From: Escherichia coli
Lineage (GTDB): Bacteria > Pseudomonadota > Gammaproteobacteria > Enterobacterales > Enterobacteriaceae
Strand: one strand, 5' to 3'
Length of the DNA: 64,000 nt
Assembly: GCF_041248615.1 (NCBI RefSeq)
Contig: NZ_CP158426.1
The position numbers and the translations under genes are program-made. Shown here piece after piece: positions 33,948-38,208 of this stretch (the first letter of the stretch is position 1; the number at the start of each line of letters is the position of its first letter). Below the pieces are notes generated by a model. The model saw nothing but the letters and a program-made list of their open reading frames with translations, was not told where the DNA came from and did no database searches.

Positions 33948-34323
33948 GGGTGACTCTGAATAAGGATTAAACCTCTATGATAGGTAACCTGAAGGCTGAT
34001 GACCAGCAGGCCGTTTTTGAGGAAAAACCACAATTTTAAAAGGGGATTGAAAGATAAATGGTGTATTAGCAATGCATCTCTTGATAATGCACATCTGCTT
34101 GGTAAATTTATTGAAATTATAATGTTAATAAAATGAGTGGTAATTTTCTTGTTAGCGCAGATAAATTTCCTGTTTTTGAAGTGGAGTTCCTCATTTAAAG
34201 CGATTGATAAAAATGTTCTAAAACGCTGGACAGACAGAAATTAATCAGGCTATTTTCAAAACAGCCACCATCGTGGCAGCGTCGCTCGGACGGTCCGGGC
34301 GCTAACGTTAATCTGAGGAAATT

Positions 34324-35562
34324 ATGGCTGACACTCGCCCTGAACGTCGCTTTACGCGCATTGATCGTCTCCCGCCCTACGTTTTTAATATTACCGCTGA
34401 ACTGAAAATGGCTGCGCGTCGGCGCGGCGAAGATATTATCGATTTCAGTATGGGTAACCCGGACGGTGCGACTCCGCCGCACATCGTCGAAAAATTATGT
34501 ACTGTGGCCCAGCGCCCGGACACGCATGGTTACTCCACGTCACGCGGCATTCCGCGGCTACGTCGCGCCATTTCCCGCTGGTATCAGGATCGCTACGACG
34601 TTGAAATCGACCCGGAATCAGAAGCCATCGTCACTATTGGTTCGAAAGAGGGACTGGCGCATCTGATGCTGGCGACGCTGGATCATGGTGACACGGTGCT
34701 GGTGCCTAATCCAAGCTACCCCATTCATATTTATGGCGCGGTGATTGCAGGGGCGCAGGTACGCTCAGTGCCGCTGGTGGAAGGTGTCGATTTCTTCAAC
34801 GAACTGGAACGCGCCATTCGCGAAAGTTATCCGAAACCGAAGATGATGATCCTCGGCTTCCCGTCGAACCCAACCGCGCAATGCGTGGAACTGGAATTCT
34901 TTGAGAAGGTTGTGGCGCTGGCAAAACGCTACGATGTGCTGGTGGTCCATGACCTGGCCTATGCCGATATCGTCTACGATGGCTGGAAAGCGCCGTCAAT
35001 CATGCAGGTGCCGGGCGCACGCGACGTGGCGGTCGAGTTCTTTACCCTGTCGAAAAGTTACAACATGGCGGGCTGGCGTATCGGCTTTATGGTTGGCAAC
35101 AAAACGCTGGTCAGCGCGTTGGCACGTATTAAAAGCTATCACGATTACGGCACCTTTACGCCGTTGCAGGTGGCAGCGATTGCGGCGCTGGAGGGCGATC
35201 AACAGTGCGTGCGCGACATTGCTGAACAGTACAAACGCCGCCGTGATGTACTGGTAAAAGGGCTGCATGAAGCGGGCTGGATGGTCGAAATGCCGAAGGC
35301 TTCGATGTATGTCTGGGCGAAAATCCCGGAACCGTATGCTGCCATGGGCTCGCTGGAATTTGCCAAGAAGCTGCTGAACGAAGCGAAGGTCTGTGTCTCT
35401 CCGGGGATTGGCTTTGGCGACTACGGCGACACGCATGTTCGCTTTGCACTGATTGAAAACCGCGACCGTATTCGTCAGGCGATTCGTGGAATTAAAGCGA
35501 TGTTCCGTGCCGACAGTTTACTACCCGCCAGCAGCAAACATATTCACGAAAACGCGGAATAA
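34324..35562 (+). CDS. alaC: Glutamate-pyruvate aminotransferase
   Basis: 412-aa PLP-dependent class I/II aminotransferase; formerly yfdZ. Confidence 0.9.
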
Positions 35563-35583
35563 ACACCATCGCCAGAAATGCAA

Positions 35584-35609
35584 ACAGGAGCCAGATGGCT
35601 CCTGTTTTT
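35584..35609 (+). terminator. Intrinsic terminator after alaC
   Basis: caggagcca-ga-tggctcctg hairpin followed by TTTTT. Confidence 0.65.
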
Positions 35610-35626
35610 CATTGCACAGTTTGCTT

Positions 35627-35698
35627 TTAGATCATCAGGGCAAAAGTACCGGCCCAAACGATGACCATAAAAGAAATGCCCATAAAGAAATATTTCAC
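35627..35698 (-). CDS. ypdK: Small membrane protein YpdK
   Basis: 23 codons (GTG start) giving VKYFFMGISFMVIVWAGTFALMI, matching the K-12 small protein YpdK as I recall it. Confidence 0.55.
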   Translation of the reverse strand: MKYFFMGISFMVIVWAGTFALMI

Positions 35699-36052
35699 TT
35701 TACATCTCTCCGCGTAATTACTGTTACGCCTGAATGACTTCATTACACCTGATACAGTGAGTTGACACCGGGCAAAACGACCTTAAAAGTCCTGTATTTT
35801 ACCGTGGGCATCACCCCAGAATTCTGAGCTAAACTGCTCCAGACGGCGCTAATGTACGCCTAAAACTGAAACGAGACAAGAGGCATTTTCTTATTTACTT
35901 TTAGTAACTTACAGGTGTCTCATATCGGCGACAGTTTAATTTCTGACGGTAATAATTAGAGATTCAGCGAAGGAAAAAACTTAAGAAAAAAGCCATAAAA
36001 ACCATGAGGTTATTATGGCTGATTTGAGGAGGGAAAGAGTAAGAGCAGTTTG

Positions 36053-36973
36053 TTAAATGTATAGCGACGATTCTCCCACCGGGCGCGTTTTAAAGCGACG
36101 GTGGATCCAGAGGTACTGCTCCGGTGCGCGCATGATCTCTTTTTCGATAATCTTGTTCATATAGGCAGCGGCTTGATTTTCATCTGCCGGGTAGCCTTCC
36201 ATCTCTGGGGTGATGTACAAACGATATCCGCTGTAATCCGCTTTTCTTACCATCGTTACGGTTAACATGGCTGCGCCAGAGAGACGTGAAAGGACATACG
36301 TACCATTGGTTGTGGCGACATTTTCCACCGCAAAGAACGGCGCGAAGGAGCTGCCTTTACGACCATAATCCTGATCGGGAGCAAACCATACCGCTTCACC
36401 TTTCTTCAGTGCACCGACAATGCCGCGCAGATTATTTCTGCCGATCATCGCTTTGTTAGAGCGCATGCGCCCACGGGTCTGCACCCATTCCATCAGCTGA
36501 TTATTATGTGGACGATAGGTAGCCATCATTGGTTGGCACAGTCCCATCACGCGGCCGCCCAGTTCCAGCGACATAAAATGGACGCCGACAACCATTACGC
36601 CGCGATTTTGCATTTGTGCGCGTTTAAGGTTATCCAACCCTTCAACATCAAACCATTTACGTACGCGACTGTCGGGCCAGAACCACGCCATGCCGGTTTC
36701 TACCAGCGCCATGCCGAGTGAACGAAAGTTTTCGGCAATCATCTTCTCGCGTTCTTCCGCAGAATGCTGTGGGAAACAAAGTTCCAGGTTTTTACGGGCG
36801 ATAGATTCACGCCGTTTCAGGAATGGTCGCGCCATTGCGCCAATACGCGTGCCGAGAAAGCAGAGAACAGGATAAGGAAGCTGTACCCAAAGCCAGAGTA
36901 CACCAAGCCCAAACCACGTGAGCCAGTAGCGAGGATGCAGAAACTCGCGGGAAAATTTGCATTTTGGAAACAT
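36053..36973 (-). CDS. lpxP: Lipid A palmitoleoyltransferase (cold-induced LpxL paralogue)
   Basis: 306 aa from MFPKCKFSREFLHPRYWLTWFGLG; track start 37039 is an over-extension. Confidence 0.9.
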   Translation of the reverse strand: MFPKCKFSREFLHPRYWLTWFGLGVLWLWVQLPYPVLCFLGTRIGAMARPFLKRRESIARKNLELCFPQHSAEEREKMIAENFRSLGMALVETGMAWFWPDSRVRKWFDVEGLDNLKRAQMQNRGVMVVGVHFMSLELGGRVMGLCQPMMATYRPHNNQLMEWVQTRGRMRSNKAMIGRNNLRGIVGALKKGEAVWFAPDQDYGRKGSSFAPFFAVENVATTNGTYVLSRLSGAAMLTVTMVRKADYSGYRLYITPEMEGYPADENQAAAYMNKIIEKEIMRAPEQYLWIHRRFKTRPVGESSLYI

Positions 36974-37325
36974 AGTTACCTTCTGTAGATACGAATTGTT
37001 GTATCGCAGAAGATTCCATGTCGACAGCGGTACACTCAATTGATTAGGCCATCATGTACGACAATGGTTCCTGTAAAGAGTGTAAAGACTAGTCAGGACA
37101 TAACCACGAGGAGCATGAATGCGGTATCTGTACTTTATCACTCGCTGACTGCTTTCAGCTACTGATTATTAATCGTGCAAAGTAAATATTTTTCCGTACG
37201 CAACAGTCTTGCATTTAACATGCTGTTTTCATTGATGCTTAGCAAAAATTGCCAGAGGTTAAGGATTGTCTTACTATTAAAGTGACTGAAGTTACAGGTT
37301 TTTTAGCGCGGCAGGAGGTTGAGCT

Positions 37326-37568
37326 ATGATTTATTTATGGATGTTTCTCGCCCTGTGTATTGTCTGCGTAAGCGGATACATCGGTCAGGTACTGAACGTG
37401 GTATCGGCGGTCTCTTCTTTCTTCGGCATGGTGATCCTCGCTGCACTCATTTATTACTTCACCATGTGGTTAACTGGCGGTAATGAACTGGTGACGGGGA
37501 TATTTATGTTTCTTGCCCCGGCTTGTGGCTTGATGATTCGCTTTATGGTGGGATATGGCAGGCGGTAG
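37326..37568 (+). CDS. yfdY: DUF2545 small inner membrane protein
   Basis: 80-aa two-TM ORF. Confidence 0.8.
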   Translation: MIYLWMFLALCIVCVSGYIGQVLNVVSAVSSFFGMVILAALIYYFTMWLTGGNELVTGIFMFLAPACGLMIRFMVGYGRR

Positions 37569-37644
37569 TGGGTCAGGATGGCTCATTTGGGCAGGTGTTC
37601 ACATCAGCATCAGACATGATTGTTCACCTGCCGTGTGACAGACG

Positions 37645-37872
37645 CTATCGCACAGGATGGATAAGATAATTCGCCTTTGTCGGAAAAGGGGGCGGAATTT
37701 CTTCTGTGAGGTTTAATGGTGGCGCATCTTCTCTCATTTTTAACAAAATCGCCTGTGATGGCTGAAATTTTGTAGAGTGAGTTGTCGTCATCGCTGACGT
37801 TTTTTCCGTCTCTTTATAGCTCGTCTCACTTCCACCACCAGAAATGGAAAATGCAAAAACATTGCATGCCAT
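37645..37872 (-). pseudogene. ypdI: Probable 5'-truncated ypdI (lipoprotein gene) abutting IS1
   Basis: 75-codon ORF MACNVFAFSISGGGSETSYKETEK... whose upstream frame runs straight into the IS1 left end at 37878; no signal peptide remains. Confidence 0.45.
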
Positions 37873-37932
37873 AATAGGGTGATGCTGCCAACTTACTGAT
37901 TTAGTGTATGATGGTGTTTTTGAGGTGCTCCA

Positions 37933-38208
37933 GTGGCTTCTGTTTCTATCAGCTGTCCCTCCTGTTCAGCTACTGACGGGGTGGTGCGTAACGGCAAAAG
38001 CACCGCCGGACATCAGCGCTATCTCTGCTCTCACTGCCGTAAAACATGGCAACTGCAGTTCACTTACACCGCTTCTCAACCCGGTACGCACCAGAAAATC
38101 ATTGATATGGCCATGAATGGCGTTGGATGCCGGGCAACCGCCCGCATTATGGGCGTTGGCCTCAACACGATTTTCCGCCATTTAAAAAACTCAGGCCGCA
38201 GTCGGTAA
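37933..38208 (+). CDS. insA: IS1 InsA
   Basis: 91 aa [43 protein letters not shown]... Confidence 0.95.

What the first reader, a model, noticed from the sequence alone, without database searches (positions are those of the whole stretch)
35699..36052. 354-bp AT-rich spacer between ypdK and lpxP with no assignable feature
This interval has no ORF above about 15 codons and no strong hairpin that I can see. It lies downstream of the cold-induced lpxP and upstream of the GTG-initiated small protein gene ypdK. The spacer could hold the ypdK promoter or an unannotated small RNA, but I cannot support either from sequence alone.
Basis: seen in the sequence. Interest (0 to 1): 0.2.

Follow-up and report, generated by a model that had tools for sequence, protein, structure and literature searches.

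The report
ypdK promoter, leader and lpxP terminator
The "empty" 354-bp spacer is ordinary control DNA: it holds the transcription terminator of lpxP, and a deeply conserved promoter with a 146-nt folded leader RNA for the tiny membrane-protein gene ypdK.

Summary
The interval is not featureless.

1. **lpxP terminator.** At 35986-36019 (- strand) there is a strong hairpin followed by six U (-15.8 kcal/mol, z = -5.1). A published Term-seq 3' end falls in the U tract.

2. **Tpke70.** The EcoCyc-listed sRNA candidate Tpke70 lies on the + strand, and its first 64 nt overlap 35989-36052. The two datasets I could read show no start or end for it.

3. **ypdK control region.** Positions 35811-35970 are as conserved as the ypdK coding sequence across about 40 Enterobacteriaceae species: 0.74 identity, against 0.52 at alaC four-fold sites. 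This holds even where lpxP is absent. The block reads as an UP-like A/T tract, a -35 TTGTCT, a 17-nt spacer, a -10 TACATT and an AGCGCC discriminator. I predicted the start site at G35844. This is exactly the ypdK start site mapped by Kim et al. 2012, which gives a 146-nt 5' UTR.

4. **Leader RNA.** The leader contains stem-loops with compensatory base changes, and it matches no Rfam family.

Verdict: a terminator, a promoter and a structured 5' UTR. The "no hairpin, no feature" description was wrong. Interest is low to moderate.

The parts
35986..36019 (-). lpxP intrinsic terminator: hairpin 35992-36019 plus U6 tract 35986-35991
   Evidence: Fold of -15.8 kcal/mol, z = -5.09. The Term-seq 3' end at MG1655 v3 position 2496632(+) falls on the last U of the tract, which is window 35986 (Adams et al. 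2021 supplement). The sequence is not conserved outside Escherichia. Salmonella and Citrobacter use different lpxP terminators.
35989..36424 (+). EcoCyc sRNA candidate Tpke70 (G0-8906, 436 nt), antisense to the lpxP 3' end. Only 35989-36052 lies inside the interval. Its status is doubtful.
   Evidence: The 436-nt Tpke70 sequence in the INTERFACE supplement starts AAAGCCATAAAAACCATGAGG, which is window 35989. Adams et al. label the 2496632 and 2496246 3' ends as antisense to tpke70. No - strand (MG1655) 3' end or start site is listed there. A sigma70-like site, GCGACA-17-AATAAT at 35928-35956 (+), could serve it, but its -10 is degenerate in most genera.
35905..35970 (-). Conserved upstream block of the ypdK promoter (-61 to -126). 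It includes the inverted repeat TGTCGCCGATATGAGACA (35916-35933, -72 to -89) and GTAAGT (35907-35912). It is a candidate transcription-factor or nucleoid-protein binding region.
   Evidence: Column identity is 0.75-0.87 across 28 species. The motif TGTCGNC-N7-GACA occurs exactly once, at a fixed distance from the -10, in 40 of the Enterobacteriaceae alaC-ypdK loci. The left arm is invariant and the right arm varies without compensation, which points to a DNA-level site. No factor was identified.
35884..35904 (-). A/T-rich UP-element-like tract (-40 to -60)
   Evidence: The E. coli sequence is CTAAAAGTAAATAAGAAAATG. The family consensus is ACTAAAAnTAAATAAAAAAAT directly 5' of the -35. The arrangement is the same as the UP element and CCTCTTGTCA of rrnB P1, read from MG1655. 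Alpha-CTD binding was not tested.
35851..35879 (-). ypdK core promoter P1: -35 TTGTCT (35874-35879), 17-nt spacer, -10 TACATT (35851-35856)
   Evidence: In 73 distinct Enterobacterales sequences the -10 is TA[C/A/G/T]ATT, with five of six positions invariant. The upstream part of the spacer is variable (entropy 1.6-2.0 bits). The mapped start site lies 7 nt downstream.
35844..35850 (-). GC-rich discriminator AGCGCC (35845-35850) and transcription start G35844
   Evidence: Kim et al. 2012 supplementary table lists a start site at NC_000913.2 position 2494797(+), 18 reads, gene ypdK, 146-nt UTR, upstream sequence ...GGCGTACATTAGCGCCG. The discriminator is AGCGCC in 41 of 73 sequences and is G+C-rich in nearly all.
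35699..35844 (-). 146-nt ypdK 5' UTR. It contains H1 (35824-35842), the long stem-loop SL2 (35759-35816), SL3 (35712-35729) and the Shine-Dalgarno sequence GGAGAG (35706-35711).
   Evidence: RNAalifold and pair counts were run on a plain MAFFT alignment of 40 sequences. The SL2 base is 95% paired with 5 pairs changed on both sides. SL3 is 91.7% paired with 4 such pairs. The whole structure is 86.3% paired, against 35-47% when partners are slid. The 63 G-U cells in SL2 favour the ypdK-sense strand (95% against 81% paired). H1 is 76-86% paired with weaker covariation. There is no Rfam match and no Term-seq 3' end inside the leader.
35579..35698 (-). ypdK coding sequence (35627-35698, GTG start, 23 aa) and its 3' UTR, up to the terminator shared with the convergent alaC (3' end at 35579)
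   Evidence: NCBIfam NF033437 YpdK, E = 9e-16. RefSeq annotation. Term-seq 'primary' 3' end at v3 position 2497040(+). The whole transcript, 35844 to 35579, is 266 nt.

Best explanation
The spacer is a composite of three ordinary functional elements, all read on the - strand.

1. **lpxP terminator.** The lpxP transcript ends at a Rho-independent terminator at 36019-35986.

2. **ypdK promoter.** About 110 bp further on lies the promoter of the small-protein gene ypdK. It is a sigma70-type promoter: -35 TTGTCT, 17-nt spacer, -10 TACATT. An A/T-rich UP-like tract and about 65 bp of conserved upstream DNA precede it; that DNA probably holds binding sites and includes an inverted repeat at -89 to -72. 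A G+C-rich discriminator, AGCGCC, follows the -10. Transcription starts at G35844.

3. **Structured leader.** The 146-nt leader folds into three elements:
   - a hairpin (H1) that begins 3 nt from the 5' end;
   - a long imperfect stem-loop (SL2), whose conserved base pairs a Shine-Dalgarno-like GAGGUGAU with GUCAxCUC;
   - a short hairpin (SL3) that abuts the true Shine-Dalgarno sequence GGAGAG, 7 nt before the GTG.

The mRNA ends at the terminator shared with alaC, giving a 266-nt RNA.

**Shown:** the terminator 3' end, the start site, the conservation, and the covariation in SL2 and SL3.

**Inferred:**
- the promoter is strong and growth-rate or ppGpp sensitive, by analogy with rrnB P1, with which it shares CCTCTTGTC and a GCGCC discriminator;
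- H1 protects the 5' end from RppH and RNase E, as 5'-terminal stem-loops are known to do (Emory, Bouvet and Belasco 1992, cited from memory);
- SL3 and its flanks tune access to the ribosome-binding site.

The module travels with ypdK-alaC, not with lpxP. lpxP is simply the upstream neighbour in Escherichia, Salmonella, Citrobacter and Enterobacter.
For: - **Identity and coordinates:**
- **Terminator:** (fold; Term-seq 3' end at 2496632).
- **Conservation:** blastn of the spacer against 80 alaC loci finds only positions 109-272 conserved (71-89%), including in genera with no lpxP nearby and with a different upstream gene in each genus. The core block has identity 0.74, against 0.52 at alaC four-fold sites and 0.35 for the lpxP-proximal part.
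- **Promoter anatomy across 73 sequences from three families:**
- **Start site:** I predicted it from sequence at v2 position 2494797 (note). I then found the same position in the Kim et al. 2012 table.
- **rrnB P1 comparison:**
- **RNA structure:**
- **No premature 3' ends in the leader:**
- **ORFs in the leader are not conserved:** the ATG is absent in many genera, and there is a 29-nt deletion in L003.
Against: - The mapped start site has only 18 reads in one dataset. I could not read dRNA-seq or Cappable-seq tables to confirm it (searches found nothing in the held files).
- The E. coli leader alone does not fold better than shuffles (z = -1.27).
- H1 covariation is modest and partly comes from a structure-fitted alignment. 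Across 71 sequences the mean z for the first 36 nt is only -0.88.
- No factor is identified for the upstream block.
- Stringent control, stabilisation by H1 and translational tuning are analogies, not results.
- Leader length varies from 36 to 183 nt in more distant genera, so SL2 is not universal.
Confidence: 0.85

Rival explanations
1. The interval's main product is an independent trans-acting small RNA on the + strand: Tpke70, or a shorter RNA of about 40-65 nt. It would start near 35963 from the GCGACA-17-AATAAT site and end at the bidirectional hairpin 35992-36019. On this view the conserved block is its promoter.
For: - EcoCyc lists Tpke70 over 35989-36424 (+).
- A sigma70-like site lies at 35928-35956 on the + strand.
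- One paper describes Tpke70 as about 40 nt.
- In vitro binding of Tpke70 to some mRNAs has been reported.
Against: - No start site on that strand at MG1655 v2 positions 24945xx-24949xx in Kim et al. 2012.
- No 3' end on that strand in the Term-seq tables.
- The + strand -10 loses its final T (AATAAA) in most genera, while the block stays conserved.
- The sequence downstream of that site (35971-36052) is not conserved beyond Escherichia (0.35 identity).
- G-U pairs place the folded RNA on the other strand.
- Tpke70 is reported as not bound by Hfq.
- Overexpression gave no biofilm phenotype.
Confidence: 0.07
2. The conserved leader is more than a passive 5' UTR. It could be a cis-acting sensor (riboswitch, thermometer or protein-binding switch) that controls ypdK. 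Alternatively, the 266-nt ypdK RNA could be a dual-function RNA whose leader base-pairs with other mRNAs.
For: - Covarying helices whose flanks are conserved in sequence, AAUUCUGAGGUGAUGC and CAGCUCUCUAUACU.
- No Rfam family matches.
- The transcript has sRNA-like size, with only 72 of 266 nt coding.
- The segment between the Shine-Dalgarno sequence and the start codon can pair with UCAU(UC) upstream of SL3 (84-85% of cells).
Against: - There is no multi-helix junction or obvious ligand pocket.
- No premature 3' end occurs in the leader.
- The Shine-Dalgarno-occluding extension shows no covariation.
- SL2 is missing in genera with short leaders.
- ypdK appears in none of the full texts of the searchable library in the context of RNA-RNA interactomes.
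Confidence: 0.12
3. A small upstream ORF in the leader (ATG at 35811, 22 codons, MPTVKYRTFKVVLPGVNSLYQV, preceded by the Shine-Dalgarno-like GGGGUG) is translated and is the reason for the conservation.
For: A mechanical ORF exists, and a Shine-Dalgarno-like GAGGUGAU immediately precedes the AUG.
Against: - The AUG is absent in Enterobacter, Kosakonia and Phytobacter.
- Frames and lengths differ between genera.
- L003 has a 29-nt (non-triplet) deletion.
- The middle of the ORF is the least conserved part.
- The Shine-Dalgarno to AUG spacing of about 2 nt is too short (established knowledge).
- There is no NCBIfam match.
Confidence: 0.02

Closest known systems
rRNA-type (rrnB P1-like) sigma70 promoters with an UP element and a GC-rich discriminator
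   Same: Both have an A/T-rich tract directly upstream of the -35. The -35 context CCTCTTGTC(A) is identical to rrnB P1 as read from MG1655. GCGCC lies right after the -10. Conserved DNA extends further upstream, where rrn P1 promoters carry Fis sites.
   Different: The spacer is 17 nt rather than 16. The -10 is TACATT, not the consensus TATAAT. The start site had only 18 reads, so the promoter is not obviously strong. ppGpp/DksA sensitivity and Fis binding are untested. The product is a 23-aa membrane-protein mRNA, not a stable RNA.
5'-terminal stabilising stem-loops of enterobacterial mRNAs (the ompA 5' UTR type)
   Same: The hairpin begins 2-3 nt from the 5' end. It is conserved as a structure while its sequence varies: 53 distinct 5'-arm strings in 71 sequences.
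   Different: No half-life data exist. Covariation support is moderate. The leader has two further stem-loops of unknown role.
Small-protein mRNAs that double as regulatory RNAs (SgrS/SgrT, AzuCR, Spot 42/SpfP; from general knowledge)
   Same: A short transcript of 266 nt, mostly non-coding, with a conserved structured non-coding part and a tiny ORF.
   Different: There is no evidence of Hfq or ProQ binding, of targets, or of a seed region. This is only a possibility.
Tpke70 (EcoCyc G0-8906; the QRNA candidate that the papers read here cite, which I attribute from memory to Rivas et al. 2001)
   Same: It overlaps the lpxP-proximal 64 nt of the interval and the terminator hairpin.
   Different: It is on the opposite strand and lies mostly inside lpxP. 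It lacks start-site and 3'-end support in the data I could read. It is not the conserved element.

Membership tests
Sigma70-type promoter | -35 and -10 hexamers separated by 17 +/- 1 nt, with the hexamers conserved and the spacer variable | tested here: met
   TTGTCT-17-TACATT. Across 73 sequences the -10 is TAnATT with five of six positions invariant, and spacer entropy is 1.6-2.0 bits.
Sigma70-type promoter | A primary 5' end about 7 nt downstream of the -10 | tested here: met
   Kim et al. 2012 start site at v2 position 2494797, which is window G35844, 7 nt after TACATT. This rests on a single dataset with 18 reads.
Sigma70-type promoter | Dependence on sigma70 holoenzyme | not testable with these tools
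   Needs in vitro transcription or ChIP.
UP-element / stringently controlled (rrn P1-like) promoter | A/T-rich -40 to -60 tract and a G+C-rich discriminator | tested here: met
   The tract is CTAAAAGTAAATAAGAAAATG and the discriminator is AGCGCC. It shares CCTCTTGTC and GCGCC with rrnB P1.
UP-element / stringently controlled (rrn P1-like) promoter | Negative control by ppGpp/DksA; growth-rate dependence; alpha-CTD contact | not testable with these tools
   Inference only.
Rho-independent terminator (lpxP) | A stable hairpin directly followed by a U tract downstream of the stop codon | tested here: met
   A 12-bp interrupted stem plus U6, -15.8 kcal/mol, z = -5.09. The simple scanner missed it because of the internal loop.
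Rho-independent terminator (lpxP) | RNA 3' ends map in the U tract | tested here: met
   Term-seq 3' end at v3 position 2496632(+), on the last U.
Tpke70 sRNA gene | Own start site and defined 3' end on the + strand of the window | tested here: inconclusive
   Neither is listed in Kim et al. 2012 or in the Adams et al. 2021 tables. Absence from two datasets is not proof.
Tpke70 sRNA gene | Conserved sequence or structure on its own strand beyond what the lpxP coding sequence explains | tested here: not met
   Positions 35971-36052 have 0.35 identity outside Escherichia. G-U pairs favour the other strand.
Any Rfam family | Covariance-model match | tested here: not met
   cmscan at E <= 10 over 34000-38000 gives only chance hits to eukaryotic and plastid families, far below their gathering scores.
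Riboswitch / attenuator leader | Conserved structure with covariation | tested here: met
   SL2 and SL3.
Riboswitch / attenuator leader | Expression platform: a premature terminator or a Shine-Dalgarno-sequestering helix supported by covariation | tested here: not met
   No 3' ends occur in the leader. Shine-Dalgarno-proximal pairings are possible but show no change on both sides.
Leader peptide / upstream ORF | An ORF conserved in frame, start codon and length | tested here: not met
5'-terminal stabiliser hairpin | A stem-loop within a few nt of the 5' end, conserved as a structure | tested here: inconclusive
   H1 starts at +3. It is 76% paired in the MAFFT alignment and 86% in the model-fitted alignment, with 4 pairs changed on both sides. 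The mean folding z is only -0.88. The effect on stability cannot be tested here.

The most novel reading that the evidence does not exclude
The ypdK leader (35699-35844) is an undescribed, family-wide regulatory RNA element. Its SL2 base holds a Shine-Dalgarno-like GAGGUGAU, and its single-stranded flanks are invariant. It would either sense a signal to gate synthesis of the 23-aa membrane protein, or make the 266-nt ypdK RNA a dual-function riboregulator. In either case it is driven by an rRNA-like, growth-rate-coupled promoter.
Probability: 0.12. Interest if true: 0.55.

Novelty: new member of a known kind. Interest (0 to 1): 0.25.

Why it matters
**Genome annotation.** A spacer that looks empty in RefSeq can be fully assigned: a terminator, a promoter with a mapped start site, and a 5' UTR.

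**Small-protein biology.** ypdK is one of the E. coli small membrane proteins of unknown function. Its control region is as conserved as its coding sequence across three enterobacterial families. It resembles an rRNA promoter and makes a leader with covarying helices. Together these suggest that YpdK expression is tightly and specifically regulated, possibly coupled to growth rate. That gives concrete handles (promoter, inverted repeat, SL2, SL3) for finding when and why the protein is made.

**Tpke70.** The results also cast doubt on the old Tpke70 sRNA annotation.

None of this is surprising in kind.

Tried and rejected
- **Rfam scan** at a permissive threshold found nothing relevant.
- **The simple promoter/terminator scanner** missed both the real promoter (4/6 + 4/6 hexamers) and the lpxP terminator. 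It flagged only a + strand site.
- **Coding hypotheses** for the 22-23-codon ORF, and for a 3-codon ATG-TAC-GCC-TAA on the + strand under the -10, were rejected for lack of conserved start or frame.
- **The inverted repeat TGTCG...GACA as an RNA hairpin or + strand terminator** was rejected. The left arm is invariant and the right arm changes without compensation.
- **The GGCG...CGCC pairing around the -10 as an RNA stem** was rejected for the same reason.
- **A CUCAG-AAUU-CUGAG alternative hairpin** (a 14-bp DNA palindrome in Citrobacter) was rejected because the left half is not conserved.
- **By-eye comparisons of the repeat with known operator consensus sequences** (CRP, FNR, LexA, PhoB, UvrY, Cra, FabR, DeoR, recalled from memory) gave no convincing match in E. 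coli. Pantoea and Serratia do have CRP-like TGTGA-N6-TC(T/A)CA sites at a different distance. The motif has no second copy in the window.
- **Alternative sigma factors** (sigmaE, sigma32, sigma28, sigma54), again compared by eye with remembered consensus sequences, gave no match.
- **A second promoter at the CTATACT motif** is plausible in other genera. It is degenerate in E. coli and has no start site in Kim et al. 2012.
- **Start-site look-ups** in the Cappable-seq, ROSE, SMRT-Cappable-seq and Rend-seq supplements returned nothing, because the files were not held or were truncated. Thomason et al. 2015 is not in the library.
- **A Klebsiella start site** was not found in the held part of the Kim et al. 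tables.

Full report
**Locus and coordinates.** The window is Escherichia coli. Positions 35500-36200 are 100% identical to NZ_OW967178.1 and are present in 5,422 of 5,426 complete E. coli genomes. RefSeq annotation places alaC at 34324-35562 (+), ypdK at 35627-35698 (-, GTG start, 23 aa) and lpxP at 36053-36973 (-). In MG1655 the same spacer is 2496566-2496920 in version 3 coordinates (version 2 = version 3 - 1978) and carries no RefSeq feature. The interval is therefore exactly the 354-bp lpxP-ypdK spacer. Its GC content is 0.404 against 0.488 for the window, the 9th percentile of 354-bp windows. That is ordinary for intergenic DNA.

**lpxP-proximal end: a terminator.** On the - strand, 33 nt after the lpxP stop codon, GCCAUAAUAACCUCAUGGUUUUUAUGGC is followed by UUUUUU (36019-35986). 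It folds at -15.8 kcal/mol with z = -5.09. The Term-seq tables of Adams et al. 2021 (PMC7815308) list a 3' end at v3 position 2496632(+), and the printed flank places it on the last U of this tract. The same table labels that 3' end "antisense to tpke70". EcoCyc carries an sRNA candidate, Tpke70, on the other strand. Its 436-nt sequence, printed in the INTERFACE supplement (PMC6172242), starts at window 35989 and runs into lpxP. So 64 nt of the interval already carry a database feature, although RefSeq omits it. This lpxP-proximal part is not conserved outside Escherichia (0.35 identity). Salmonella and Citrobacter use different terminators.

**Conserved core.** I fetched 80 alaC loci from one genome per species. 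blastn of the spacer finds only spacer positions 109-272 (window about 35807-35970) conserved, at 71-89% identity. The genera include Citrobacter, Salmonella, Kluyvera, Yokenella, Enterobacter, Lelliottia, Pluralibacter, Phytobacter and Kosakonia. Many of these have no lpxP nearby, and the upstream gene differs from genus to genus: a transporter, a dipeptidase, a beta-lactamase and others. ypdK itself sits next to alaC out to Pantoea, Erwinia and Serratia. The conserved block therefore belongs to ypdK, not to lpxP. In a 28-species alignment, column identity over 35811-35970 is 0.75-0.97, comparable to the ypdK coding sequence. Pairwise identity to E. coli averages 0.74 for the core. The comparison values are 0.52 at alaC four-fold degenerate sites, 0.52 for the promoter-distal leader and 0.35 for the lpxP-proximal part. 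As a control, the distal 278 bp of the neighbouring pyrS-alaC spacer cannot be aligned beyond Citrobacter.

**The core is a promoter.** Read on the ypdK strand, the block contains:
- a conserved distal region (-126 to -61), including the inverted repeat TGTCGCCGATATGAGACA at -89 to -72;
- an A/T-rich tract (-60 to -40);
- CCTCTTGTCT with -35 TTGTCT (35879-35874);
- a 17-nt spacer that is variable in its upstream part;
- TACATT (35856-35851);
- AGCGCC.

From this I predicted a start at G35844, which is v2 position 2494797 (noted). The supplementary start-site table of Kim et al. 2012 (PMC3415461) lists exactly this position. The entry reads: 2494797, + strand, 18 reads, gene ypdK, 146-nt 5' UTR, upstream sequence ...TTGTCTCGTTTCAGTTTTAGGCGTACATTAGCGCCG.

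Across 73 distinct sequences from Enterobacteriaceae, Erwiniaceae and Yersiniaceae, the -10 is TACATT (54), TAAATT (12), TAGATT (5) or TATATT (2). Five of its six positions are invariant. The discriminator is AGCGCC in 41 sequences and G+C-rich in nearly all. Spacer entropy is 1.6-2.0 bits. This is the classic promoter signature.

The -35 context CCTCTTGTC, the upstream A/T tract and the GCGCC discriminator are shared with rrnB P1, which I read from MG1655. Growth-rate or ppGpp control is therefore an inference, not a result. The inverted repeat occurs once per locus at a fixed distance. Its left arm is invariant and its right arm varies without compensation, so it is a DNA-level site. I could not name its factor. 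Serratia and Pantoea instead carry CRP-like sites at other distances.

**Leader RNA.** From G35844 to the GTG is 146 nt. RNAalifold on a plain MAFFT alignment of 40 Enterobacteriaceae leaders predicts two elements:
- a long stem-loop (SL2, 35816-35759), whose base pairs GAGGUGAUGCC with GGUGUCAACUC;
- a hairpin (SL3, 35729-35712) that ends one base before the Shine-Dalgarno sequence GGAGAG.

Pair counts:

| Element | Cells paired | Pairs changed on both sides |
|---|---|---|
| SL2 base | 95% | 5 (for example AU 14 / UG 13 / UA 9; CG 30 / UA 8; CG 14 / UA 12) |
| SL3 | 91.7% | 4 (GC 28 / AU 7) |
| Whole structure | 86.3% | - |
| Partners slid by 1-3 columns | 35-47% | - |

The 63 G-U cells in SL2 mean the helix holds on the ypdK-sense strand (95% paired) better than on the opposite strand (81%).

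A 5'-proximal hairpin (H1, 35842-35824, starting at +3) is present in nearly all taxa, with many different stem sequences. It is 76% paired in the MAFFT alignment and 86% in a model-fitted one, with 4 pairs changed on both sides. The mean folding z is only -0.88, so its support is moderate.

Two possible extensions of SL3 would cover the Shine-Dalgarno sequence or the segment between it and the start codon. Both are compatible with the sequences (84-85% paired), but neither has covariation. The E. coli leader alone is not unusually stable (z = -1.27). No Rfam family matches. No Term-seq 3' end lies within the leader; the next 3' end on this strand is the ypdK "primary" end at v3 position 2497040, which is window 35579. 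The ypdK RNA is therefore 266 nt, of which 72 nt are coding.

**Alternatives.**
- Tpke70 or another + strand sRNA. A sigma70-like site, GCGACA-17-AATAAT, exists on the + strand at 35928-35956. However, neither dataset lists a start site or 3' end on that strand. The -10 of this site is degenerate in most genera. The sequence downstream of it is not conserved.
- A 22-codon upstream ORF starting at 35811. It is not conserved in start, frame or length.
- A riboswitch-like or dual-function role for the leader. This cannot be excluded, but it lacks positive evidence such as an expression platform or interactome data.

**Verdict.** The spacer is a textbook arrangement: the terminator of the upstream gene, then the promoter and structured 5' UTR of the downstream gene. 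The promoter's start site is already in a public high-throughput dataset, and an old sRNA candidate overlaps the terminator. What appears undescribed is how strongly the control region is conserved and that the leader has covarying helices. This is a modest addition: a new member of a known kind.

Noticed in passing
window 34263-34323 (+), alaC 5' UTR: The alaC (yfdZ) start site is mapped at window A34263 (1,217 reads, 61-nt UTR). Term-seq shows a very high-scoring 'orphan' 3' end (score 64,902) at window 34312, 12 nt before the ATG and just 5' of the Shine-Dalgarno sequence. The 50-nt fragment folds into two hairpins (-23.9 kcal/mol). The last 45-100 nt of this spacer are conserved in all 82 alaC loci. 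It looks like an abundant RNA derived from the 5' UTR, or a site of premature termination or processing.
   Followed up: partly
window about 36062 to 35986 (-), lpxP 3' end: Kim et al. 2012 list a second weak 5' end (12 reads) at v2 position 2494578, 10 nt before the lpxP stop codon. Together with the lpxP terminator this would give a 77-nt fragment derived from the 3' UTR. It carries a C/U-rich tract, CUCUUACUCUUUCCCUCCUC. The 3' UTR is not conserved outside Escherichia.
   Followed up: partly
window 35752-35758 (-); alignment A2 columns 101-107: Most genera have a perfect -10-like CTATACT or CTATAAT inside the ypdK leader, just 3' of SL2. E. coli has CTGTATC, and no start site is listed there. 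This may be a second promoter that Escherichia has lost or weakened.
   Followed up: partly
L019:5729-6604 (+) (Kluyvera genomosp. 1): A 291-aa ORF (MVKTSLRQLTLIAAAALPLL...) lies immediately upstream of the conserved ypdK control region in this Kluyvera locus. From its N-terminus I judged it to resemble a class A beta-lactamase. Neither that identity nor the sister locus L021 (K. cryocrescens) was checked with any tool.
   Followed up: no
window 37933-38208 (+): An ORF that I recognised from memory as IS1 insA ([42 protein letters not shown]...) lies beyond yfdY. Here the otherwise identical strain NZ_OW967178.1 and MG1655 have ypdI, so this looks like a strain-specific IS insertion.
   Followed up: no
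MG1655 v3 position 2496246 (+), window about 36372 (-), inside lpxP: A second supplementary table of Adams et al. lists a 3' end internal to lpxP and antisense to Tpke70, with two pairs of read counts, a ratio of 2.08 and p = 7e-6. I take this to be their table of bicyclomycin-sensitive (Rho-dependent) ends, but the excerpt I read does not say so.
   Followed up: no
L081 (record titled Pseudomonas resinovorans DSM 21078): This contig encodes an AlaC that is 91% identical to the E. coli protein, and it has the conserved alaC leader block. That is unexpected for a Pseudomonas and suggests contamination or a mislabelled contig. No ypdK was found on it.
   Followed up: no
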